DNA of 64,000 nt from the NCBI GenBank assembly GCA_050246875.1, contig JBFWVF010000012.1:11375-75374 (forward strand), given 5' to 3'. The DNA comes from Alphaproteobacteria bacterium (GTDB lineage: Bacteria > Pseudomonadota > Alphaproteobacteria > UBA6615). Positions 47,698 through 61,724 of this stretch are shown piece by piece. The position numbers and the translations under genes were made by a program. Each line of letters opens with the position of its first letter. Positions within the stretch are counted from its first letter, which is position 1. The notes beneath the pieces were generated by a model, which was not told the DNA's origin, did no database searches, and worked only from the letters and a program-made list of their open reading frames with translations.

Positions 47698-47796
47698 TGG
47701 CGGAAAGGAGTGGGAGTCGAACCCACCGGGCACGTGTCCACACGCGCCCCACCGGATTTGAAGTCCGGGCGCCCCACCGGGGTGCGGTTCCCTTCC
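47698..47796 (-). tRNA. selC: tRNA-Sec (anticodon UCA)
   Basis: Reverse complement GGAAGGGA...CCGGA-CTTCAAA-TCCGG...long variable arm...GTGGG-TTCGACT-CCCAC-TCCTTTCC-G-CCA; 8-bp acceptor stem, encoded CCA. Confidence 0.96.
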
Positions 47797-51196: not shown

Positions 51197-51373
51197 CTGT
51201 ACCGCCTCATTGGAAAAGAGCGGCGCTGCCCCGGCATCGCTACAAAGAGGGATTCAGAATTGCGGAAGAGACATCAAGTGGCCAGTGGCGTGTCGAATGC
51301 TATTATTGGGGATATATCTTCTGGTTCCAGAAAGAATCCGACGCTATAGCGTTTCTGTTACGGGATTATCCCC

Positions 51374-51402
51374 TTGAAGCACGTACGATGGTTCCCTATA
51401 TT
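51374..51402 (+). promoter_or_regulatory. Transposase promoter overlapping IRL
   Basis: TTGAAG-17 nt-TATATT, 23 nt upstream of the transposase ATG. Confidence 0.6.
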
Positions 51403-51425
51403 GAGGGTGTCGAAGGGAACCGATC

Positions 51426-52304
51426 ATGTCCGACAAACTCACAGTCCGCGACTACTTCAAGCGTTTCCCTGATGAGGACGCTTGCCTCCTGCATGTGATG
51501 GAAGTCCGCTACGGGCTCCGTCACGTCTGCGGCCACTGTGGGAAGGACGCGACCTTTCATCGGCTGGCGAAGCGCAAGGCGTTCTCCTGCGCGGCCTGTG
51601 GCGCGCACGTCTACCCGTGCGCCGGGACGGTTTTCGAGGATAGCCGGACCCCGCTGCAACTCTGGTTCTATGCCATCTACCTGTTCGTCACGACGCGCCA
51701 CGGTGTCAGCGGCAAGGAACTGCAGCGTCAGCTTGGCGTGACGTACAAGACGGCTTGGCGGATGGGCCACCAAATCCGCGACCTGATGAACAAGGCCGAT
51801 GGCTTCGCCATGCTGCGCGGCCACGTCGAACTTGATGAGGCGTATGTCGGCGGCCGGCGCAGCGGTGGCAAGCGCGGGCGCGGCGCGCCGGGCAAGACCA
51901 TCGTATTCGGCATGGTCGAGCGTGGCGGCCGGATGGCGGCGGAAGTGATCCCGAACATCAAGAAGTCGACGCTTCGCGAGGCGACGCTTCGCAACGTCGA
52001 GCCCGGCTCGCTGGTGTCGACCGATGAACTGATGAGTTACGGCTTACTGGACGGCGACGGCTACAAGCACGGCACGGTCGCGCACGGCCAGAAGGACTAT
52101 GCCCATTACGACTATCGCCACGACGCGGTGCACCACGTCAACAGCGTCGAGTCGTTCTGGCGGGTGTTCAAGCAGTCGGTAACGTCGACACATATCCATG
52201 TGTCGGAGCGGCACATGAACCGTTATCTCAACGAGTTCGCTTTCCGCTCAAATCATCGGGCGATGCAGAACGCGATGTTCGATCTTCTGATCGGCGCTGT
52301 CTGA
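51426..52304 (+). CDS. IS1595 family (ISXO2-like) DDE transposase
   Basis: Zn ribbon CGHC..CAAC, GVSGKELQRQLGVTYKTAWRM HTH, ELDEAYVGG, STDE, NSVESFW, YLNEFAFR. Confidence 0.95.
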   Translation: MSDKLTVRDYFKRFPDEDACLLHVMEVRYGLRHVCGHCGKDATFHRLAKRKAFSCAACGAHVYPCAGTVFEDSRTPLQLWFYAIYLFVTTRHGVSGKELQRQLGVTYKTAWRMGHQIRDLMNKADGFAMLRGHVELDEAYVGGRRSGGKRGRGAPGKTIVFGMVERGGRMAAEVIPNIKKSTLREATLRNVEPGSLVSTDELMSYGLLDGDGYKHGTVAHGQKDYAHYDYRHDAVHHVNSVESFWRVFKQSVTSTHIHVSERHMNRYLNEFAFRSNHRAMQNAMFDLLIGAV

Positions 52305-52431
52305 TCAATCGGCCCAATGCGGCATCAAGGTCGGCGCTATCCGCCGGCCCGACGCCGCGGGCCTCCTCCTGCGCAACAAACTCCGCTATGCGCCCTTCTT
52401 TGATGGCTTGGGCGAGCGTTAACATTCTCAC
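52228..52431 (-). CDS. Small hypothetical passenger protein (67 aa)
   Basis: GTGA overlap with the vapD stop; MLTLAQAIKEGRIAEFVAQEEARG; overlaps the transposase 3' end in antisense. Confidence 0.55.
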   Translation of the reverse strand: MRMLTLAQAIKEGRIAEFVAQEEARGVGPADSADLDAALGRLIRQRRSEDRTSRSASPDDLSGKRTR

Positions 52432-52754
52432 TCAGCGGCAGCGCTGGGCGCCAGCGGCAGCACATAATCGCCAACGGCCGGCATCAGATCGTTGTTGTCC
52501 TCGATCCGCAGCATCCGAATGTCGGTAACACAGGTGCGGAACCAAGGGTGCTTCGCCACAAGCGCTTGAACTGCAAGCACACACTTCACGGCGTCGATCT
52601 TGTCCGAGCTGGCAAAGTAGACGCTTCCCTGTTGGCGCTCAAAGCCGTGCTCTTCAAGAACGCGTCGAATGTCCTCATAGGCATTGCGCCCGTAGCTACC
52701 AGGGTGGTGCTTGTCGAGAAGTTCGGTATCCAGGTCAAAGACGATGGCGTGCAT
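52428..52754 (-). CDS. vapD: Virulence-associated protein D (VapD, Cas2-like endoribonuclease)
   Basis: MHAIVFDLDT..L, AYEDIRRVL..HGF..QQGSVY, PWF..CVTDIRMLRIEDNNDLMP; GGAG SD. Confidence 0.88.
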   Translation of the reverse strand: MHAIVFDLDTELLDKHHPGSYGRNAYEDIRRVLEEHGFERQQGSVYFASSDKIDAVKCVLAVQALVAKHPWFRTCVTDIRMLRIEDNNDLMPAVGDYVLPLAPSAAAE

Positions 52755-53145
52755 GCGCCGGCTCCATTGCATGGAGTTGGGTAGGTGCGAGCCGGTGCAT
52801 TCAACGGGGACGGGCGCTAGGGCTGACGACGATGTGTTTGCCGGCGAGCCGGTCAACACACGAAATTTCCGCCGGGTCTTGTGCCTCATGAAGGCAAAAT
52901 GAGTCCGGCCGCGCGGCGGTGTCAACGAGAAAACACCGCACCGCACAATGATCTGGCCTAGCCTGTCCGGGTTGGTTATCATGCGTCCCGGCGGAGGAGA
53001 CGCCGCCCCGACGCTCGAAAGAGCATCAGGGCGGCGGCCCCGATCAGCCTAACAAGGCTGGCGGTATGTTACGAACCATGGCCTCGCCTCCTTTCGTCAG
53101 GGCTCTGTGCGCGTGGCAGTTCTCAGGCTGGTTCACGCGACACAC

Positions 53146-53679
53146 TCAGGATGCTGAAGCGGCGGACGATTCGTGGTCGTCCGCCGTTTCGTTTCCTCCC
53201 GTCTGATTCCCGCTAGGCTCCGCGTCTAGCTGCACACCGGCAGCGACGGCTCCTGTTGGGGTAACTCGAAACCGTCCGGGCATTGTACGCTCGACTAGGC
53301 CCTGCTCGCTGTAAATATGCATTTGCGAGCGGATGGTTGTTTTCTGTGTCTGAGTTCCGTACTGAGCGCACAGCCTCTCAATATCTGACAACGAAAAGTC
53401 GCGCGGGTATCGGGCCGACATGGCCGCGATGACAGATTTCCATAGCTCGGACAAGCCTCTACGACGATCCGAGCCGGCGCTAGATGGCGCAGGCTCAGGT
53501 TGCACAACGGGCTCCTGATCCGCGCCAAGGAGGACTTTCGTTGCTTCCTCGAAGCCGCGCAGTTCGGCCTCTAGGGTTTCAACGCGCTTCTGCGCAGCAA
53601 TGACCGAACGACGCGCCGATTCGACCGCGCGCCGCTTGGCTTCTAGCTGCTGTTGAAGGCTGGTGGGCAGGTTCGTCAT
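53146..53679 (-). CDS. Hypothetical passenger protein (N-terminal coiled coil, C-terminal winged-helix-like); start uncertain
   Basis: Heptad-rich LQQQLEAKRR...LEAELRGFEEA; FSLSDIERL...TIRSQMHIYSEQGLVER..PGRFRVT. Confidence 0.6.
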   Translation of the reverse strand: MTNLPTSLQQQLEAKRRAVESARRSVIAAQKRVETLEAELRGFEEATKVLLGADQEPVVQPEPAPSSAGSDRRRGLSELWKSVIAAMSARYPRDFSLSDIERLCAQYGTQTQKTTIRSQMHIYSEQGLVERTMPGRFRVTPTGAVAAGVQLDAEPSGNQTGGNETADDHESSAASAS

Positions 53680-54086
53680 GCGACGGACTCTGGCAGAGTC
53701 CATCGGCAAATACAACGGTACAACGCACGGGAATTTTGTCCCAAAACGGGGCGTTAAACGGCGTTGTTAAATCAAACGCCCGATGGATCGGACGGCGCTT
53801 ATATCGAAACTGTCGATATAACCATCAAACTGTTGGGGCTTAAGGGCCGAATCGCGGTCCCGTGCGTCAAGGGGATAATCCCGTTCTGTTAAGAATGGAC
53901 CTCTGAAACTTACAGAAAATCCGAAGGTCAATCGTCTACTGAAGTTATGAGCGCCCGTTCGACTGCCTGCGGGTCGCGCTCCATCACGCGGAGCAGAATG
54001 CGCGCTGCGACATCGGCACACGCCTGCCCTGCTCCCAGCCGTGTCCCAGCCGTGGAAAGGCTTACACATAGATCATAGAATTGAAA

Positions 54087-54716
54087 CTAACTATTATGTT
54101 CCGCGAATAGCTTGTCAAAAATATCGTCGGCCCCCCACGCTTGTGCGGAAGTGAAGGCCAATCGTCTTTTCTGATCGTCATCCAGAGATTCCACTCCCGA
54201 CTTATAGCCGATATCGTGCTCTGCCTCAGACCAAGCGTGCTGAAATAAAGTCTTTATCTGGAGCTCAAAAAAACTTGGGACCGATTTTCGATCAATCTTC
54301 CTGTCTATTACGTCGTTTGGTAAAATCAATATATGATGATAACCAAAATAGCCAAACTTCCAAACTGACTCAGGTATATGGCGCCTGTGCTCTATCGTGC
54401 GAAAATATTTCTTTATAATTTTATCAATCCTAACGACATCTGAAAGATAAAAAGTTACGATTCGGCATCCTATTTGATCCTGAATCTCATTGAATGGATC
54501 GATGTACTTTCGCTTACCATCTTCCTCCTTCATCGCCTTGGCGACAAAACTTTCTACACCTTTAGATCGCGATGAAACACGATCTATTCTAGGACAGCCA
54601 ACTAAAAAGCTTTCAATATGCTGTCGCAGCGCCTCAGCAATTGGCATTAAAGCAGATTCGCGCCTTCTCCTGTATTCACCCTCGATGTATTCAGCGCTGA
54701 GACTTGAGTTTATCAT
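54087..54716 (-). CDS. RelA/SpoT synthetase-domain protein (small alarmone synthetase-like)
   Basis: RSKGVESFVAK, DQIGCRI, GYFGYH, ELQIKTLFQHAWSEAEHDIGYK; no HD/TGS/ACT domains; AT-rich. Confidence 0.88.
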   Translation of the reverse strand: MINSSLSAEYIEGEYRRRRESALMPIAEALRQHIESFLVGCPRIDRVSSRSKGVESFVAKAMKEEDGKRKYIDPFNEIQDQIGCRIVTFYLSDVVRIDKIIKKYFRTIEHRRHIPESVWKFGYFGYHHILILPNDVIDRKIDRKSVPSFFELQIKTLFQHAWSEAEHDIGYKSGVESLDDDQKRRLAFTSAQAWGADDIFDKLFAEHNS

Positions 54717-55707
54717 CTATAACTTTTCCCTTCGTGGTATATACGACATTTTTCTTTGATCCATCCTCGTATTTCTTATCAAATATTTTTTCAAACTCTG
54801 ACGCCTTGGCCGTCATAAGCGCGCCGTTGTCTAGTTCGACTGACCTATACGCAACGAAATTTCCGAACTCTGCGACATCCAATTGGAAAACCTCGTTGGC
54901 GATTTCTGGATTTTTTAACTCACTAATCAGGGCACCCCTCGCTTCCTTGGAAAGATTAAACCGCTCCGCAAATCCAATAATACTTATGCTCTGTCCGCCC
55001 AACCCTCTCGCCAACCTGCTTGCGGCGATGAGTTCTTCTTTCACTTCCATAGGAGCTTTCTTCACCGCGTCACGTAGTGCGATTCCTAGCCGACGGGAGC
55101 CAGCCGCAGCTGTCGTCACAAACTCGGACATTAAAAAATTTCTTATCCAATAATCGGACAGGTGGTCGTTTCCGTTGCTAATCTGCCTATCGACGGCTTT
55201 GCCTCGCCAAAAGCCACGCTTAAGTGATGAATCATTGTAAAGAGCCGCCTTATAGGAAGTTTTATTTTTCATGAAAACCCGCTCAAGGAACTCCACAGTA
55301 AACTCTGTCGATTTTTCGTCAACGAGGATTGCACTATCAGTAGGAAAGCGAGATATCACTATTTTATGTTGATCAGCCTCCCTCCCTGAGATCAGAAAAA
55401 GCAACCCCAATCCAGATCGACGGTCGGTCATATCTTGCAGACGCTCAGCGATAGTTTGAGCTGATGGAATACTTAGGTCGCTCAGATATTTAACAAGGAG
55501 GGACCGAAACTCGTTTTTCTGCTCCCCTTCTGAGGTCGGACGAAAATTTATGTGGATATCGCATTCCTCTTCAGATCTCTCGTAAATGCCATTTAACAGT
55601 TTGAATAGATTACCAGACAGCGGAACAGCCGTTCCGCTGACAGCGATCTTTTCCCGCCGAGCTTTTCCCGGGCTTACAAGGAATGCGTGAATTTGTTGGA
55701 TTGGCAA
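54691..55707 (-). CDS. Hypothetical protein (338 aa), overlapping and upstream of the RelA/SpoT gene
   Basis: Long uninterrupted ORF in AT-rich DNA, TTG start, 26-nt overlap with the synthetase gene. Confidence 0.8.
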   Translation of the reverse strand: MPIQQIHAFLVSPGKARREKIAVSGTAVPLSGNLFKLLNGIYERSEEECDIHINFRPTSEGEQKNEFRSLLVKYLSDLSIPSAQTIAERLQDMTDRRSGLGLLFLISGREADQHKIVISRFPTDSAILVDEKSTEFTVEFLERVFMKNKTSYKAALYNDSSLKRGFWRGKAVDRQISNGNDHLSDYWIRNFLMSEFVTTAAAGSRRLGIALRDAVKKAPMEVKEELIAASRLARGLGGQSISIIGFAERFNLSKEARGALISELKNPEIANEVFQLDVAEFGNFVAYRSVELDNGALMTAKASEFEKIFDKKYEDGSKKNVVYTTKGKVIDDKLKSQR

Positions 55708-55802
55708 TTCGGCGCCCCCCGCGCTTAATTACGCATACTGCTACCTATCCGTGCAAGTAGAAGATATTTCAGCTCCGCCTAAAGATTAGGGCCGCTTTGG
55801 CG

Positions 55803-56047
55803 CTAGGCGGTGACTTCGGGCAGCTGGACGGCGGCCAGAAGGGTGAACGGCCGAGCCGCAACAGGCGCCGTCCTTCGCCTTCGCGACGGATCATGCCAAC
55901 GCGATCGAGATATTCGAGTATCTCGACAGACACGTTGCGGTCGATGCGCACGACAAGGCGGAGACGCCCGGCACGGCGCAGCACCGACATGACGCGCTCG
56001 GGCTCGGCGCACAGCAGCTTGGCGATCTCTTTGGCGACCGGCAACGC
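55803..56047 (-). pseudogene. Degenerate duplicate of the selB 3' end
   Basis: [31 protein letters not shown] / [24 protein letters not shown] matches the SelB C-terminus (56475-56831), with a 114-bp deletion and a terminal frameshift. Confidence 0.85.
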
Positions 56048-56425
56048 TCAGCCCTTGTCGATCTCGCCGCCGGCATCGAGCCAGCCCTTGAAGCCGCCGA
56101 GGTTGCGCACGTTGGCGTAGCCCATGTCCTTCAGCGTCCTGCCGGCGAGCGCGGAGCGGCCGCCCGACGCGCAGTAGGCGACGATCGTCTTGGCACGATC
56201 GAACGCCGCGTCATGCAGCGGCGAGGCCGGATCGGCCCGGAACTCGAGCAGGCCCCTGGGCACGGCGACGGCGCCACGAACCTTGCCGGAGGCCGCGATC
56301 TCGGCCGACTCACGGACATCGAGAAACAGCACGTCGGGCCGTCCGACCAGGCCCTTGGCGTCGTCGGGGCTGATGCGCGGCACCGCGGCTTCGGCTTCAG
56401 CCAGCATCGCCTGAACCGTCTTCAT
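56048..56425 (-). CDS. Single-domain rhodanese (sulfurtransferase)
   Basis: LDVRE, VPRGLLEF.AD, YCASGGRS, NLGGFKGW; SD AGGGAG. Confidence 0.92.
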   Translation of the reverse strand: MKTVQAMLAEAEAAVPRISPDDAKGLVGRPDVLFLDVRESAEIAASGKVRGAVAVPRGLLEFRADPASPLHDAAFDRAKTIVAYCASGGRSALAGRTLKDMGYANVRNLGGFKGWLDAGGEIDKG

Positions 56426-56474
56426 GCTCAGTCTCCCTGTAGGTCCGTTACGCCCTGCACCGGTGCAAGGCGTC

Positions 56475-58400
56475 CTATCCGGCAACCTCCGGCTGTTGCG
56501 CGGCGGCGAGCAGAGAGGACGCCGGGCGCAGCAGGCGCCTTCCCTCGCCTTCGCGGCGGGTCATGCCGACGCGGTCGAGATACTCGAGAATCTCGACCGA
56601 GAGATTGCGGCCGATGCCCAGTTCGTCGCGGAAATTCGTCGGCTGCAGATTGCCTGCGCGTGCCAGCCGCTCCGCCGTCCGCGCCCATTGCGCGGCGGTT
56701 TCCGTCGGCGCGAAGCGGTTGCGGCCGATGCGCACGACGAGGCCGAGACGCTCGGCACGGCGCAGCACCGACATGACACGCTCGGGCTGCGCGCGCAGCA
56801 GCTTGGCGATCTCGTTGGCGACCGGCGGCGCGTTGCCGGCGGCCTCGAACAGCGGCTCGATGTCGCGCCACAGCGCGGCGTCGGCGGCCTGCAACGCCGG
56901 CCTGTGCGTCGGAAGACGCCACCACGGCCCGGTCGCGTCGACCTTGTTCTCGCCCCGCAACGCGTCGAGCACCGCCGCGACGACGGCCGGGCCGGCGGGA
57001 CCGCCGGCGGTGCGCCGCAGCGTGCCGGCATCCGGCCCGAGACGATCCGGCTGGCCCTTGTGGGCCATCGCCAGTGCCGCCAGCAGGCGGGTGCCGAGAT
57101 CCTGCCAGTGGCGCGGCGCCAGCGCCACGCCGCCGGCCCGTTGCATCGGCACGCTGGCCATCAGGGCGTCGCGCGCGGCGCCATCGAGATTGCGCGCCAG
57201 GAAGAAGCGATCGAGGTCGACGCCGCCGGGCGTGGCATCGAGCAGGCCCGCGAGCGCCGTCGCGGGATCGCCTTCGGCCAATGCCGCCAGCGCCGCCAGA
57301 CGGTCGCTGCGCGCCCGACCGCGCGGCGGCGGGAACGGATCGACGATGCGCCCGCCGGCCAGCGTCTGCCGCCCAGACTGGTCGCGCAGCACGAAGCGGT
57401 CGCCGGCGAGCAGCCCGGCCGGACGGTCGAGCGCCAGGCGCACCAGCCCTTCGCCGCCGGGCGCGAGGCTCGGCCCGCCCAGCACCCAGGCGCGCGCCGG
57501 AATGTCGCCGGCGCCATGATGCAGGTGGACGGGCGTGCCGTCGGCGAAGACGCGCGTCGCGTCAGCCGGCACGCGGGCCAGCACGTCGGCGCGGTCGGTC
57601 GGCGCGTGCAGGTCGGCGGCGACGAGCCAGTCGCCGCGCGTGATGCCGGCCTTCTCGAGCCCGGCGGCGACGATGTTGACGGCGCAGCGGTCGCCCGCCT
57701 GGCCGCTCTCGGCCTTGCGGTCCTGCACGTGCAGGCCGCGCACCCGCACCTCGATGCCGGCGGGGCTCAGCATCAGGCGATCGCCGACGGCGACGCGCCC
57801 CGAATAGGCCGTGCCGGTGACGACGAGGCCGGCGCCGGCGAGCGTGAAGGCGCGGTCGATCGACAGGCGGAAGCCACCGCGGGCGGAACGTGACGGCAGC
57901 GCTGCCGCCGTGGCCGCAAGATGCGCGGAGAGTTCCGGAATGCCGTCGCCGGCGATGGCCGATACCGGGAAGACCGGCGATCCGGCCAGCGCGGTCGGCG
58001 CCAGCATGTCCTCGATCTGCCCCCTCACCTCGGCGACGCGCTCGGGCGGCACGCGGTCGATCTTGGTCAGCGCGACGACGCCGCGCGAGATGCCGAGCAG
58101 GTCGATGATGCCGAGATGCTCGCGCGTCTGCGGCATCGGCCCGTCGTCGGCGGCGACGATCAGCAGCACCGTATCGACGCCGGCGACACCGGCGACCATG
58201 GCGCGCACGAAGCGCTCGTGGCCGGGCACATCGACGATGCCGAGCACCGTGCCGTCGGGCAGCGCCGTGTAGGCGAAGCCGAGATCGATGGTCATGCCGC
58301 GCCGCTTCTCCTCCGGCAGGCGGTCGGCGTCGACGCCGGTCAGGGCACGCACCAGAGCGGTCTTGCCGTGGTCGATATGGCCGGCGGTGGCGATGATCAT
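56475..58400 (-). CDS. selB: Selenocysteine-specific translation elongation factor
   Basis: [41 protein letters not shown]-terminal [20 protein letters not shown]. Confidence 0.96.
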
Positions 58401-59809
58401 GCCGGCGCATCCAGCGCGGCGAGGGTGGCGAGGAAGCCGGCCTCGTCTTCGAGCACGCGCAGGTCGAGCAGCAGCGCGCCATCGGCGATGCGGCCGATCA
58501 CCGGCGCCGGCAGGCCGCGCAGCGCCGCCGCCAGGCGGTCGAGCGCGCGCCCGCCGCCCTTGGCGGACGCCGGGCGGATGGCCAGAGCGGCGCTCGGCAA
58601 AGCCTCGACCGGCAGCGCGCCGGAGCCGATCTGGCTCGCGCAGGGCACCACCGCCACCGTCCAGTCGCGCCCCAGGCGCGCCTGCACGCGCGGCGCCAGG
58701 CGCTCGGCGGCAGCGCGGATGTCGGCCTGCGGCCGCGCCAACAGGCGCAGCGCCGGCAGGCGGGCGGCGAGGCGGTCGGGATCGCGGTAGAGCGCGAGCA
58801 CGGCGGCCAGCGCGGCGATGGTCAGCTTGCCGAGACGCAGCGAGCGCTTGAGCGGGTTCTTCGCCAGCCGCGCCATCAGGTCCTTGCGGCCGACGACGAG
58901 GCCGGCCTGCGGCCCGCCGAGCAGCTTGTCGCCACTGAAGGTGACGAGGTCGGCGCCGGCCTTCAGCGTGTCCGTCACCGTCGGTTCCGGCGGCAGGCCC
59001 CAGCGGGCGAGATCGACGAGGCTGCCCGAGCCGAGGTCCGAGGCGAAGGGAATGCCGTGCTTGCGCGCGATGCCGGCGAGGGTCACCTCATCGACCGACG
59101 CCGTGAAGCCCTCGATGCGGTAGTTGCTGGTGTGGACCTTGAGCAGCAGCGCCGTCTTCGGGCCGATCGCGCTCTCGTAGTCGCGTGCATGGGTGCGGTT
59201 CGTCGTGCCGACCTCGACCAGCCTGGCGCCAGCCCGCGCCATGATGTCGGGCAGCCGGAAAGCACCACCGATCTCGATCAGCTCGCCGCGCGAGACCACG
59301 ACCTCCTTGCCGCGCGCCAGCGTATTGAGCAGCAGCAGCAGGGCGGCGGCGTTGTTGTTGACGGCGACGGTCGCTTCGGCCCCGGTCAGTTCGCGCAGCA
59401 GGTCGGCGATGTGATCGTCGCGTTCGCCGCGCTTGCCGCTGGCGAGGTCGAATTCGAGGTTGGCGGCGCCGCGCGCGACGGCGGCGATGGCCGCCACCGC
59501 CTCCTCGGGCAGCGGCGCGCGGCCGAGATTGGTGTGCAGCACTGTGCCGGTGAGGTTGAACACCGGCCGCAGCGACGGCACGGCGGCGCGGGCCAGCGCG
59601 GCCGCCGCGCGCGCCGCGATGGCGTCATCGCCGGCCACGGCCGCCTCGCCCGCCGCCACGGCACGGCGCAAGGCGGCGAGCTCGGCGCGCAGCGCCGTGG
59701 TCACCGGCACGCGGCCGTGCTCGGCGACCAGCGCCGCCACCGCCGGCAGGGCGAGCAGGCGGTCGACGGACGGGATGGCGGCGTATGCCGTGCGCTCGCT
59801 GTCGGGCAT
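58397..59809 (-). CDS. selA: L-seryl-tRNA(Sec) selenium transferase
   Basis: [58 protein letters not shown]. Confidence 0.96.
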
Positions 59810-59817
59810 GTCCGGGA

Positions 59818-60951
59818 TCAGCCGAAGCGGATGACCTGGCGGATGGCGGCGCCATCGGCCAGACGGTCGAAGCCGGCATTGATGTCGTCGAGGCGGATGT
59901 AGTCGCTGAGCACCCGCTCCACCGGCAGCCGGCCGGCCTCGTTCAGCGCGATGTAGCGCGGGATGTCGCGCGCCGGCACGCAGCTGCCCATGTAGCTGCC
60001 CTTGAGCGTCCGTTCCTCGCCGACCAGCGAGACCTGCTGCACGGAGACCTTGCGGTCGGGATGGGCGAGCCCGGCGGTCACCGTGGTGCCGCCCCGCGCC
60101 GTGACGGCATAGGCGAGTTCGACCGCGGGCGCCGCACCGGCCGTCTCCACCGCCACGTCGACGCCGCCGCCCGTCGCCGCCTTCACCTGTTCGACGACAT
60201 CGGTGGCGCGCGCGTCGAAGGCGGCCGTCGCGCCGAGCTGGCGCGCCAGTTCGAGCTTGCGCGGATCGAGGTCGAGCGCCACCACCTGCGACGCGCCGGC
60301 GGCGAGCCCGCCGAGCAGCGCGTTGAGGCCGACGCCGCCCATGCCGACGACGGCGAGCTTCTGCCCGGCCTTCAGCCCGCCGGTATTGAGCGCCGCCCCG
60401 ACGCCGGTGATGACGGCGCAGCCGAACAGCGCCGCCTTGTCGAGCGGCAGGCGCTTGTGGACCTTGACCAGCGAGCGGCGCGAGACGACACAACGCTCGG
60501 CGAAGCAGGAGACGCCGACGAGGTGATTGACCGGCTTGCCGTTCCACGACAGGCGACGCGCGCCGGTGATCAGCGTGCCGGCGACATTGGCCTTCGCCGC
60601 CGCCGTACACAGGGCCGGCCGGCCCTCCATGCAGGGCACGCAGGCGCCACAGCCGGGCACGAAGACCATGACGACGTGGTCGCCCGGCGCCAGGTCGTCT
60701 GGCCCGATACCCGTGCCGACCGCCTCGACGACGCCGGCGCCCTCGTGGCCCAGCACCATCGGCACGGGACGCGGCCGGTTGCCGTCGATGGCCGAGAGGT
60801 CGGAATGGCAGAGGCCGGCCGCCTCGACGCGCACCAGCACCTCGCCCGGCCCCGGCGCCTCGAGATCGAGTTCGACCAATTCCAGCGGACGGCTCTCGGC
60901 GTAGGGGCGCTTGCGGCCCATTTCCACCAGCACGGCGGCGCGCGTCTTCAT
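59818..60951 (-). CDS. Zinc-dependent alcohol dehydrogenase
   Basis: GLCHSD, GHEGAG, CGAC..C...[17 protein letters not shown]. Confidence 0.92.
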
Positions 60952-61064
60952 GCTTCCTCTCCCGATCACGGGGCGGCGATTGTCCGGCACGGGCGGCGGG
61001 GCCGCAAGGCCGCCCCTGGCGACGGCGGTTATACTGGCGCGGCACAGCTGGCGGGAGAACTGTC

Positions 61065-61724
61065 GTGGCGAGCATCGACGCCAACCCCTACCCGTTCGAT
61101 TTCCGGCCGGAAACGGTCGCCCTGCTGGCCATCGACATGCAGCGCGACTATGTGCTGCCGGGCGGCTACGGCGCATCGCTGGGGCTCGACGTCGCGCCTT
61201 GCCAAGCGATCGTGCCCGCCGTGGTGTCGCTGGTCGACCTGTTCCGCGCCCGCGGCCTGCCGGTCATCCACACCCGCCAAACGCACAGGCCCGACCTTTC
61301 CGATTGCCCGCCGGCCAAGCTGCGCCGGGGCAACCCGAAGCTGCGCATCGGCGATCCCGGGCCGATGGGCCGGCTGCTCATCCGCGGCGAGTACGGCAGC
61401 GACTTCATCGACGAACTGCAGCCGTTGCCCAGCGAAGCCGTCATCGACAAGCCGGGCAAGGGTGCGTTCTACGCCACAGGCCTGCACGACACGCTCAGGC
61501 AGTTCGGCACGGAACAGCTGATCGTCTGCGGCGTCACGACCGAGGTCTGCGTGCAGTCGACCATCCGCGAGGCCAACGATCGCGGCTACGACTGCCTGCT
61601 CGTCGAGGACTGCACGGCGAGCTACTATCCGCAGTTCCGGCAGGCGACGATCGAGATGATCCGTTCGTCCAACGCGCTGATCGGCTGGACCGCACCGCTG
61701 GCGAAGGTTGCGGCGGCGCTGTAG
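61065..61724 (+). CDS. Cysteine hydrolase, isochorismatase family (biuret hydrolase-like)
   Basis: [36 protein letters not shown]. Confidence 0.88.

What the first reader, a model, noticed from the sequence alone, without database searches (positions are those of the whole stretch)
54087..55707. AT-rich two-gene cassette: unknown 338-aa protein + small alarmone synthetase (candidate defence or toxSAS system)
Seen: markedly AT-rich DNA with two overlapping co-oriented ORFs. The second has all the RelA/SpoT synthetase motifs but no hydrolase or regulatory domains. Established: toxSAS enzymes and CapRel make (p)ppApp or pyrophosphorylate tRNA, and act in toxin-antitoxin pairs or phage defence. 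Inference: the upstream protein is the sensor or antitoxin. It loosely recalls nucleoid-associated YejK/NdpA-type proteins in size and layout, but this is a weak impression. I do not recognise this pairing as a named system.
Basis: partly seen in the sequence, partly recalled or inferred. Interest (0 to 1): 0.78.

Follow-up and report, generated by a model that had tools for sequence, protein, structure and literature searches.

The report
Nucleoid-protein plus alarmone-synthetase defence pair
Two overlapping, horizontally acquired genes encode a distant relative of the nucleoid protein YejK and a minimal alarmone synthetase, most likely a stripped-down variant of the recently described PANGU anti-phage system.

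Summary
Two co-oriented minus-strand genes overlap by 26 nt: A (54691-55707, 338 aa) and B (54087-54716, 209 aa). They lie in 44.5% GC DNA inside a 71% GC window. B is a synthetase-only RelA/SpoT enzyme with all catalytic motifs.

A's model matches E. coli YejK (Z 13.9), and its family profile matches NA37 proteins that sit beside long SAS genes (hhalign 97.6%).

The pairing is conserved: 11 of 11 genome loci, 67 of 68 informative metagenome loci, and conjugative plasmids. It is rare in the class (only the window's genome among 401 sampled) and often sits in prophages or beside defence genes.

A named relative exists. PANGU type I (bioRxiv, April 2026) pairs a YejK-like sensor with a GRel synthetase that it activates to make pppGpp.

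This pair differs in three ways. The synthetase carries the psRel motif, not gRel. It lacks the C-terminal DNA-mimic domain through which PANGU's two proteins bind. The nucleoid protein is too divergent for Pfam NA37.

A complex model supports direct binding of A to B's catalytic domain (ipSAE 0.76, best control 0.00).

Verdict: a new variant of a known kind. Function is inferred, not shown.

The parts
54691..55707 (-). Gene A: a 338-aa divergent YejK/NA37-fold nucleoid-associated-like protein. It is the presumed sensor or regulator of the synthetase.
   Evidence: The ORF is. The window's own protein has no Pfam, PADLOC or NCBIfam hit. The AF2 model has pLDDT 87.4. Foldseek's top hit is 9be2, E. 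coli YejK, at E 4.5e-7. VIA gives Z 13.9 with 288 residues aligned, and the next hit scores 5.5. Of 56 family members, 6 hit Pfam NA37. hhalign to an NA37-passing, SAS-linked protein gives 97.6% probability. In the ESM Atlas, 27 of 30 nearest clusters form the set whose listed examples carry NA37.
54087..54716 (-). Gene B: a 209-aa small alarmone synthetase with the SYNTH domain only and a psRel-type motif. It is the presumed effector.
   Evidence: Pfam RelA_SpoT matches at E 2.7e-14. Catalytic residues are invariant in 41 of 41 homologues. The nearest solved sequences and folds are RelQ/RelP. B is 33% identical to the N-terminal 211 residues of a 329-aa gRel-type SAS and ends where that protein's C-terminal domain begins. 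Its 14-residue catalytic word occurs in the Jimmy et al. alignment, and every label in the passages shown was psRel.
54691..54716 (-). The 26-nt overlap between the end of A and the start of B. It points to one transcript and probably coupled translation.
   Evidence: Coordinates are and the sequence. The same overlap or abutment occurs in 11 of 11 genome loci and in the metagenome loci.
55708..55768 (-). Short upstream leader between the selB-like fragment and the TTG start of A. No promoter was identified.
   Evidence: The sequence is. The consensus scan found no minus-strand promoter-like site upstream of A.
53885..54086 (-). Spacer downstream of B, ending at the inverted repeat of an inserted IS1595-type element.
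   Evidence: Sequence is.

Best explanation
The cassette is a two-protein conflict module of the PANGU kind. It was acquired horizontally.

Protein A is a divergent YejK/NA37-fold protein and acts as the sensor-regulator. Protein B is a minimal psRel-type alarmone synthetase and acts as the effector.

Proposed mechanism, by analogy with PANGU type I:
1. A is normally held on chromosomal DNA.
2. When an infecting phage degrades the chromosome, A is freed and binds B.
3. Binding switches B on.
4. B transfers pyrophosphate from ATP to GTP/GDP. ATP and GTP are depleted and (pp)pGpp accumulates.
5. Transcription and translation stop and the infection aborts.

Unlike described PANGU type I, B has no C-terminal DNA-mimic (DMK) domain. 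A is therefore predicted to grip the catalytic domain of B directly.

Shown here:
- the anatomy of the pair;
- the fold of A and its profile link to NA37;
- the intact catalytic motifs of B;
- the conserved pairing;
- the mobile, patchy, low-GC character of the pair;
- a controlled in-silico model that supports A-B binding.

Inferred only: DNA binding by A, release on genome damage, activation rather than inhibition of B, the product of B, and phage protection.
For: A has the YejK fold.
- VIA gives Z 13.9 to 9be2 over model residues 1-336; the next hit scores 5.5.
- Foldseek gives E 4.5e-7, the only hit at E <= 0.001.
- In the ESM Atlas, 27 of 30 nearest clusters form the set whose listed examples carry NA37 (47-100% of members). 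Structural TM is 0.71 to an NA37 cluster.

Both proteins link to a PANGU-type-I-like architecture.
- Two genomes of the phylum carry a second, divergent NA37 gene. Pfam NA37 scores 57.1 and 41.4 bits against a cut-off of 24.6.
- In each, the NA37 gene overlaps a downstream 326- or 329-aa SAS.
- My A-family HMM hits those two proteins (E 1.1e-16 and 5.4e-13). It hits none of the 30 best NA37 loci fetched.
- hhalign gives 97.6% probability, E 4.7e-12, over 236 columns.
- B aligns to the N-terminal SYNTH part of the 329-aa SAS (33% identity, E 1e-17).
- The catalytic words of those long SASs occur in Jimmy et al. Dataset S5, and every label in the passages shown was gRel. The PANGU preprint assigns Pag1B to that subfamily.

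The pairing is conserved.
- 11 of 11 genome loci.
- 67 of 68 metagenome loci with enough downstream DNA; 80 were fetched and 12 end within 109 nt of A.
- All 6 plasmid hits are on conjugative plasmids. The downstream gene is annotated RelA/SpoT in 3 of them, and tblastn with B finds it in 2.

The pair looks like accessory, conflict-related DNA.
- Only the window's own genome among 401 sampled genomes of the class has an A homologue.
- The pair has lower GC than its flanks in 11 of 11 loci.
- Neighbours include phage terminase and portal on either side, DarT with NADAR, HEPN, AbiGi, VirB8/9/10 with PIN, and a serine recombinase.
- Plasmid neighbours include AbiJ-NTD4, an AAA ATPase with a UvrD helicase, TIR, and ImmA/IrrE.
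- One IMG/VR viral contig carries the pair.
- The genome already has a 744-aa long RSH, so B is an extra.

Direct binding is supported in silico.
- Two copies of A were folded with one of B. ipSAE was 0.76, 0.76 and 0.74; the best of 3 controls was 0.00.
- That mark was reached by 58 of 80 solved complexes and 2 of 110 mismatched pairs.
- The runs agree in at least 94% of contacts. Partner pLDDT is at least 84.
- The interface lies on B residues 71-77, 103-111, 129-139 and 148.

The chemistry is likely (p)ppGpp synthesis.
- The only solved sequence relatives are the RelQ/RelP (p)ppGpp synthetases, and these are also the best folds.
- The PANGU preprint reports that Pag1A-activated Pag1B makes (pp)pGpp and does not label tRNA (text read).
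Against: - No experiment bears on this pair.
- The window's own A protein has no Pfam NA37 hit even at E <= 1.
- hhalign of the A family against E. coli YejK itself is not significant (probability 0.8%). Homology to NA37 therefore rests on fold and on intermediate sequences.
- B lacks the DMK domain. In 61 of 61 complete partner SAS ORFs the tail beyond the SYNTH profile is at most 33 aa. The preprint calls NAP-DMK recognition an architectural principle of PANGU.
[quoted passage not shown] The activation logic may therefore not transfer to this pair.
- B carries the psRel motif, not gRel.
- PADLOC has no model for A and only a weak PDC-S33 hit for B.
- Four of the 11 genome loci (L007-L010) have mostly housekeeping neighbours.
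- In this window the immediate neighbours are an IS element and selenocysteine genes, not recognised defence systems.
- The complex model is the program's own confidence. It used my alignments and an A2B layout, both unlike its calibration.
- The PANGU work is a preprint.
Confidence: 0.55

Rival explanations
1. The pair is a classical type II toxin-antitoxin module. B is a constitutively active toxic synthetase. A is its antitoxin, inhibits B by direct binding, and is encoded first and translationally coupled as antitoxins usually are. Release would come from loss of A, not from its relocation.
For: - The architecture is overlapping and bicistronic with the partner gene first. Jimmy et al. used this pattern to find toxSAS modules (PMC7229694, passages read).
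- The predicted interface sits on the catalytic domain of B, next to the G-loop strand at residues 129-139. Binding there could block the enzyme as easily as activate it.
- The pair occurs on conjugative plasmids and in prophages, where addiction modules are common.
Against: - Both proteins are homologous to NA37 plus gRel-type pairs. For that type the preprint reports that neither protein, nor both together, is toxic, and that the nucleoid protein activates the effector.
- A is a 338-aa protein with a DNA-clamp-type fold, much larger than typical antitoxins.
- psRel is not among the five validated toxSAS subfamilies.
Confidence: 0.25
2. The architecture is as in the best explanation, but the chemistry differs. 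B pyrophosphorylates tRNA 3' ends (as CapRel, FaRel2 and PhRel2 do) or makes (pp)pApp (as FaRel and Tas1 do), instead of (pp)pGpp.
For: - Known toxSAS enzymes of defence and toxin-antitoxin systems use these chemistries (abstracts listed).
- CapRel 7ztb appears among the fold matches at E 2.4e-7.
- Substrate cannot be read from the motifs available here.
Against: - Sequence and profile searches of the PDB find only RelQ/RelP. No CapRel, FaRel2 or Tas1 chain appears even at E <= 10.
- RelP and RelQ rank above CapRel by fold.
- The B family is not basic: median pI is 6.0 across 41 members.
- The related gRel effector did not label tRNA and used only guanine nucleotides as acceptor.
Confidence: 0.12
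3. The pair is a housekeeping or stress-response alarmone synthetase with a chromatin-bound regulator, unrelated to phage or plasmid conflict.
For: - RelQ/RelP-type enzymes are housekeeping, and they are the closest solved relatives.
- Four of 11 genome loci have ordinary metabolic neighbours.
Against: - Only the window's own genome among 401 sampled genomes of the class carries A.
- The pair has lower GC than its flanks in 11 of 11 loci.
- It has prophage, plasmid and defence-gene contexts.
- NCBIfam's YjbM equivalog scores 46.7 bits against a cut-off of 320.
Confidence: 0.06

Closest known systems
PANGU type I (Pag1A YejK-like NAP plus Pag1B GRel toxSAS). Li et al., bioRxiv 10.64898/2026.04.06.716658. 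I read section 2 parts 1-4, the Discussion, Methods sections 40 and 42, and the Extended Data legends.
   Same: - It is a two-gene operon with the YejK-fold protein upstream of an overlapping SAS.
- Both proteins here are detectably homologous to an NA37 plus long-SAS pair of that architecture found here.
- The distribution is mobile, patchy and often defence-linked.
- The two proteins are predicted to bind.
   Different: - The effector here is 209 aa and SYNTH-only. It lacks the roughly 118-aa C-terminal domain through which Pag1A binds Pag1B.
- It carries the psRel motif, not gRel.
- The nucleoid protein here misses Pfam NA37 altogether. It would probably fall below the preprint's HMM threshold of E < 1e-10; I did not test this with the authors' HMM.
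- The predicted contact is with the catalytic domain.
toxSAS toxin-antitoxin modules (FaRel, FaRel2, PhRel, PhRel2, CapRel). Jimmy et al. 2020, PMC7229694.
   Same: The effector is a synthetase-only RelA/SpoT homologue in a conserved overlapping bicistron on mobile DNA.
   Different: - The partner is not one of the known antitoxin families. It is a YejK-fold protein.
- The SAS is psRel, a subfamily that main text does not name (0 occurrences).
- No solved toxSAS appears in the sequence searches.
E. coli YejK (PDB 9be2; Pfam NA37 PF04245)
   Same: The whole-length fold matches: Z 13.9 with 288 aligned residues. The size is about 335 aa.
   Different: - Identity is 12%, and profile-to-sequence comparison is not significant.
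- E. coli yejK is annotated with unrelated neighbours (rplY, yejL) and no adjacent SAS gene.
- NA37 is nearly unfound in the sampled genomes of this class.
RelQ/RelP (SAS1/SAS2) of Firmicutes
   Same: They are the best sequence and fold matches, at E 4.5e-12 and 7.9e-9. They have the same size and the same single domain.
   Different: - The NCBIfam equivalog is far below its cut-off (46.7 against 320 bits).
- B is always paired with A. It is also low-GC and mobile.

Membership tests
PANGU type I | The operon encodes a YejK-like (NA37) nucleoid-associated protein. | tested here: met
   Fold Z 13.9 to 9be2. hhalign 97.6% to an NA37-passing protein. ESM Atlas NA37 clusters. Caveat: the window's protein itself has no Pfam NA37 hit, and hhalign to E. 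coli YejK is not significant.
PANGU type I | Bicistronic operon with a small alarmone synthetase next to the NAP gene. | tested here: met
   26-nt overlap. 11 of 11 genome loci. 67 of 68 informative metagenome loci.
PANGU type I | The effector belongs to the GRel SAS subfamily. | tested here: not met
   B's 14-residue catalytic word occurs 5 times in Jimmy et al. Dataset S5, and all labels in the passages shown were psRel. The words of the long SASs L047 and L050 occur in sequences labelled gRel. B is 33% identical to the gRel-type L050 SAS. This is a word match read by eye, not a tree.
PANGU type I | The effector has a C-terminal DNA-mimicking (DMK) domain that binds the NAP dimer. | tested here: not met
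   B ends at the position matching residue 211 of the 329-aa SAS. The tail beyond the SYNTH profile is at most 33 aa in 61 of 61 complete partner ORFs.
PANGU type I | The NAP binds long DNA and leaves the nucleoid on phage-induced genome degradation. | not testable with these tools
   Only fold and charge are available: pI 9.04, family median 7.7.
PANGU type I | The NAP activates the synthetase to make (pp)pGpp, and the pair protects against phage. | not testable with these tools
   There is only a binding model: ipSAE 0.76 against a best control of 0.00.
toxSAS toxin-antitoxin systems | The SAS has an intact SYNTH active site and sits in a conserved overlapping bicistron. | tested here: met
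toxSAS toxin-antitoxin systems | The SAS is toxic and is neutralised by the neighbouring gene product. | not testable with these tools
   This needs expression assays.
toxSAS toxin-antitoxin systems | The SAS belongs to a validated toxSAS subfamily (FaRel, FaRel2, PhRel, PhRel2, CapRel). | tested here: not met
   psRel word match. PDB sequence searches return only RelQ/RelP.
Pfam NA37 (PF04245) | Score over the family's gathering cut-off. | tested here: not met
   The window's protein has no hit at E <= 1. Of 56 relatives, 6 hit, with best E 5.6e-5. The own genome has no PF04245 match.
RelQ (YjbM) equivalog, NCBIfam NF053588 | Score over the curated cut-off of 320 bits. | tested here: not met
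   46.7 bits.

The most novel reading that the evidence does not exclude
The pair represents a DMK-independent lineage of nucleoid-protein-controlled alarmone synthetases. A YejK-fold sensor couples directly to the catalytic domain of a psRel enzyme, with no DNA-mimic adaptor. This would give the uncharacterised psRel subfamily its first function. It would also show that the 'NAP recognises a DNA mimic' rule of PANGU is not general. The direction of control, activation or inhibition, may differ from PANGU.
Probability: 0.4. Interest if true: 0.65.

Novelty: new variant of a known kind. Interest (0 to 1): 0.52.

Why it matters
If the reading holds, sensing of genome integrity by nucleoid proteins reaches further than the first census of PANGU could see. 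That census used an NA37 HMM at E < 1e-10, and this family misses Pfam's NA37 model entirely.

The reading would also show that the sensor can control a bare synthetase domain. That gives a minimal two-protein system of 338 and 209 residues in which to ask how a DNA-binding clamp switches an alarmone synthetase.

It would assign a role to psRel. This is one of the 30 SAS subfamilies of the 2020 classification, and my word search of the held papers found no account of it.

For annotation, hundreds of 'hypothetical protein plus GTP pyrophosphokinase' pairs in Alphaproteobacteria, soil metagenomes, rhizobial plasmids and prophages could be labelled.

Tried and rejected
Searches that found nothing or were not significant:
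- Pfam, NCBIfam and PADLOC on A gave nothing.
- Sequence and profile searches of the PDB with A gave nothing meaningful.
- hhalign of the A family against E. coli YejK was not significant. I therefore looked for intermediate NA37 proteins and found two.
- tblastn of A against cultured phage genomes found no match.
- Four other divergent or second NA37 copies in the phylum sample (L048, L049, L051, L052) have no SAS beside them. They say nothing about this pair.

Ideas considered and dropped:
- KwaB (Kiwa) and RdgC appear only as weak fold matches, at Z 3.9-4.7 over the N-terminal half. I do not file A with them.
- I checked whether the VapD-like gene and the 189-aa gene next door belong to the system. 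They are absent from all 11 related loci. They lie inside a separate IS1595-type element bounded by 24-nt inverted repeats.
- The 100-aa ORF 53767-54069 just downstream of B runs across that inverted repeat, so I take it as spurious.
- The 547-aa A-B fusion P0093 is one protein from one 3.8-kb contig, joined inside the natural overlap. It could be a frameshift error, so I give it no weight.
- I looked for enrichment of family-conserved residues in A's predicted interface. By my own count, only 2 of the 28 invariant or near-invariant positions fall in it, which is about the chance expectation.

Things I could not do:
- I could not place Pag1A's DNA-contact residues (K200, R203, K204) on A, because no tool gave me the Pag1A sequence.
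- The FlaGs neighbourhood figures of Jimmy et al. (Dataset S3, a PDF) and Datasets S1 and S2 could not be read. They may already show a conserved neighbour for psRel.
Full report
**1. The observation**

One search lists two co-oriented minus-strand ORFs. A runs 54691..55707 (338 aa, TTG start). B runs 54087..54716 (209 aa, ATG start). They overlap by 26 nt.

Both N-termini match the consensus of their homologues. Purine-rich stretches precede both starts.

The DNA is AT-rich for this genome. Windows between 54000 and 55749 have GC 0.40-0.48, against 0.66-0.78 on either side. The pair has GC 0.445 against 0.714 for the rest of the window.

B matches Pfam RelA_SpoT (E 2.7e-14, residues 49-174) and nothing else. 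In an alignment of 41 homologues the nucleotide-binding and catalytic residues are invariant: R43, D45, R50, K52, D80, G83, R85, Y123, H127, E151, Q153.

**2. What protein A is**

Family libraries say nothing about the window's own protein. Sequence searches of the PDB also find nothing useful.

It is nevertheless a real, sizeable family.
- At least 833 relatives have E <= 0.001 among the 8000 candidates scored. Almost all are about 338 aa and unnamed.
- There are 603 representatives at the 50% clustering level.

An AlphaFold2 model built on 56 sequences is confident, with mean pLDDT 87.4.
- Foldseek finds one PDB hit at E <= 0.001: 9be2, E. coli YejK, at E 4.5e-7.
- The VIA second look gives Z 13.9, rmsd 12.3 and 288 aligned residues spanning model 1-336 and chain 3-330. 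The next entry scores Z 5.5. The high rmsd and TM of 0.37 fit a multi-domain protein whose domains sit at different angles.

Sequence evidence is thinner.
- Of 56 family members, 6 hit Pfam NA37, with best E 5.6e-5. The window's protein does not hit.
- hhalign of the family against E. coli YejK itself is not significant, at probability 0.8%.

I therefore looked for intermediates.
- In 301 genomes of the phylum, 48 have an NA37 match. Almost none of these are in the window's class.
- I fetched six second or divergent copies.
- Two of them, L047 and L050, pass the Pfam NA37 cut-off with 57.1 and 41.4 bits against 24.6.
- My A-family HMM hits both, at E 1.1e-16 and 5.4e-13. It hits none of the 30 best NA37 loci fetched.
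- hhalign gives 97.6% probability, E 4.7e-12, over 236 columns.

The ESM Atlas agrees independently. 27 of its 30 nearest clusters form the set whose listed examples carry NA37 (47-100% of members), and structural TM is 0.71 to an NA37 cluster.

So A is a divergent member of the YejK/NA37 fold family. It is closer to the SAS-linked branch than to the YejK-type NA37 genes fetched.

**3. What protein B is**

B is a SYNTH-only small alarmone synthetase.
- Its only solved sequence relatives are RelQ/RelP. phmmer's best hit is 3l9d at 9.7e-10. The profile's best hit is 5f2v at 4.5e-12, with no CapRel, FaRel2 or Tas1 chain even at E <= 10.
- These are also the best folds, at E about 8e-9 and TM about 0.6. 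CapRel comes lower, at 2.4e-7.
- B is not the RelQ equivalog: it scores 46.7 bits against a cut-off of 320.
- The genome also has a 744-aa long RSH elsewhere, so B is an extra.

In the alignment that Jimmy et al. 2020 deposited (PMC7229694, Dataset S5), B's 14-residue catalytic word occurs 5 times. Every label in the passages I was shown was psRel. psRel has 0 occurrences in that paper's main text. No other held paper uses the name in this sense.

**4. The pairing and its setting**

The SAS lies directly downstream of the A homologue, overlapping or abutting it, in:
- 11 of 11 loci from reference genomes, all Alphaproteobacteria by their titles;
- 67 of 80 metagenome loci.

Of the 13 metagenome loci without the SAS, 12 end within 109 nt of A and are uninformative. 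One (L124) has 1.27 kb of downstream DNA and no SAS. That makes 67 of 68 informative loci.

All 6 plasmid hits are on conjugative Rhizobium or Agrobacterium plasmids. The downstream gene is annotated RelA/SpoT in 3 of them, and tblastn with B finds it in 2.

Every partner SAS is short. In 61 of 61 ORFs that end inside their locus, the tail beyond the SYNTH profile is at most 33 aa.

The pair is rare and patchy. The A-family profile finds only the window's own genome among 401 sampled genomes of the class. The pair has lower GC than its flanks in 11 of 11 loci.

Pfam hits among 98 neighbouring ORFs include:
- L004: a large terminase directly upstream and a portal directly downstream;
- L002: a portal-MuF gene directly upstream, plus AbiGi; IMG/VR holds a contig with the same ORF layout as L002, listed as viral;
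- L003: a serine recombinase and a terminase;
- L005: DarT with NADAR;
- L006: HEPN_LA2681;
- L011: VirB8/9/10 and PIN.

Four loci (L007-L010) look ordinary.

On plasmids the neighbours include AbiJ-NTD4, an AAA ATPase with a UvrD helicase, DUF6035, a TIR protein and ImmA/IrrE.

In this window the pair lies between a selB-like fragment and an IS1595-type element (section 8).

**5. The known relative**

A full-text search for toxSAS papers turned up a preprint of April 2026, bioRxiv 10.64898/2026.04.06.716658. I read section 2 parts 1-4, the Discussion, Methods sections 40 and 42, and the Extended Data legends.

It defines PANGU as bicistronic anti-phage operons with a YejK-like nucleoid-associated protein.
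- In type I, Pag1A is the NAP. Pag1B is a GRel toxSAS with an N-terminal SYNTH domain and a C-terminal acidic DNA-mimicking (DMK) domain.
- Pag1B alone is an inactive tetramer.
- Phage nucleases degrade the chromosome and free Pag1A.
- A Pag1A dimer then binds the DMK domain, and the heterotrimer makes (pp)pGpp from ATP and GTP/GDP/GMP. tRNA is not labelled.
- Neither protein is toxic alone or together without phage.

The two intermediate loci I found have this architecture. Each has an NA37 protein of 364 or 365 aa overlapping a downstream SAS of 326 or 329 aa. Their catalytic words occur in Dataset S5, and every label in the passages shown was gRel.

B aligns to the first 211 residues of the 329-aa enzyme (33% identity, E 1e-17) and stops there.

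So both components of the window's pair are homologous to the components of a PANGU-type-I-like pair, in the same order. Three things differ:
- B carries the psRel motif, not gRel.
- B has no DMK domain.
- A is too divergent for Pfam NA37. It would probably fall below the preprint's census threshold of E < 1e-10. That last point is inference, because I did not have the authors' HMM.

Searches for YejK with alarmone, for GRel, and for PANGU found no other relevant paper.

**6. How A and B might meet without a DMK domain**

I folded two copies of A with one of B, each with its alignment.
- The verdict was that the model supports binding but does not show it.
- ipSAE was 0.76, 0.76 and 0.74. The best of 3 controls was 0.00.
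- The mark was reached by 58 of 80 solved complexes and 2 of 110 mismatched pairs.
- The runs agree in at least 94% of contacts. Partner pLDDT is at least 84.
- The counts hold only roughly, because my own alignments and a three-chain layout were used.

The interface lies on the catalytic domain of B: residues 71-77, 103-111, 129-139 and 148, flanking the D80 motif and the G-loop strand. On A it covers residues 54-63, 112, 159-168, 195-206 and 265-272. This includes the conserved stretch around G203, R205 and R206.

The solved PANGU complex, as described, contains only the DMK domain of Pag1B. This interface is therefore unlikely to be recalled from it.

Two questions remain open. I could not test whether B's footprint overlaps A's DNA path. 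The model also cannot say whether binding activates or inhibits B.

**7. Explanation and rivals**

Best explanation (0.55): the pair is a PANGU-like sensor-effector module. DNA-bound A is freed by phage-induced genome damage and switches on B. B then makes (pp)pGpp and drains ATP and GTP, aborting the infection.

Rivals:
- Classical toxin-antitoxin pair with A as the inhibitor (0.25). The gene order, the overlap and an interface on the catalytic domain are equally compatible with this. The behaviour of the homologous PANGU pairs argues against it.
- Same architecture with different chemistry, tRNA modification or (pp)pApp (0.12).
- Housekeeping regulator (0.06). Rarity, low GC and mobile contexts argue against it.

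All functional steps are inferred. No expression, toxicity, product or phage data exist for this family.

**8. Context in this window**

The low-GC tract is interrupted by a 2,525-bp element.
- It is bounded by 24-nt inverted repeats (51360-51383 and 53861-53884, 96% complementary).
- It is flanked by a TCTGTT direct repeat.
- It carries an IS1595-type transposase, a VapD/Cas2-like gene and a 189-aa ORF.
- It is single-copy in the genome.
- None of its genes accompany the pair elsewhere.

Upstream of A lies a 91-aa ORF that matches SelB-wing_3. It sits in DNA that is 84-90% identical to the 3' end of the intact selB about 0.7 kb away, with a rhodanese gene between the two copies.

**9. Verdict**

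What remains new is the variant: a psRel synthetase with no DNA-mimic domain, a nucleoid protein invisible to NA37 models, and a predicted direct grip on the catalytic domain. I rate it a new variant of a known kind, of moderate interest.

Noticed in passing
window 51360-53884: A 2,525-bp IS1595-type element. It has 24-nt terminal inverted repeats (96% complementary) and a flanking TCTGTT direct repeat. It carries the transposase (51426-52304, +) and two passenger ORFs: a VapD/Cas2-like protein (52428-52982, -; NCBIfam VapD E 2.9e-17, below its cut-off) and a 189-aa ORF with no family hit (53146-53715, -). It is single-copy in the genome.
   Followed up: partly
window 55769-56047 and 56527-56831: A partial second copy of the 3' end of selB, 84-90% identical over 94 and 114 nt. 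Its 91-aa ORF matches SelB-wing_3. It lies just upstream of gene A, with a rhodanese gene (56048-56485, -) between it and the intact selB (56475-58400, -). It may mark the edge of an old insertion or recombination event.
   Followed up: partly
window 47702-47796: tRNA-Sec (anticodon TCA) on the minus strand. It lies about 9 kb from selB (56475-58400) and from a long ORF (58397-61084) that overlaps selB's start and that I took, without a family search, to be selA.
   Followed up: no
L124 (metagenome contig), 1-852 and 1638-2120: The one informative locus where the A homologue has no synthetase downstream. About 0.8 kb follows without a convincing ORF, then an ORF with a P-loop-like GxxGxGKT motif. 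It could be a decayed copy or a different effector.
   Followed up: partly
L048, L049, L051 (G262:C6, G265:C17, G059:C57): Divergent second NA37 copies (Pfam E 4e-15 to 3e-6) in genomes that also have a standard yejK-type copy. None has an SAS beside it. They may be other PANGU-like types.
   Followed up: no
P0093 (547 aa, one 3.8-kb metagenome contig): A single-polypeptide fusion of an A homologue and a psRel-type SAS, joined within the region where the two genes normally overlap. It is either a natural fusion or a frameshift error.
   Followed up: partly
L078, L125, L130 (metagenome contigs): Partner SAS ORFs that cover only part of the SYNTH profile (positions 8-158, 104-210 and 6-166). These are possibly decaying copies.
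   Followed up: no
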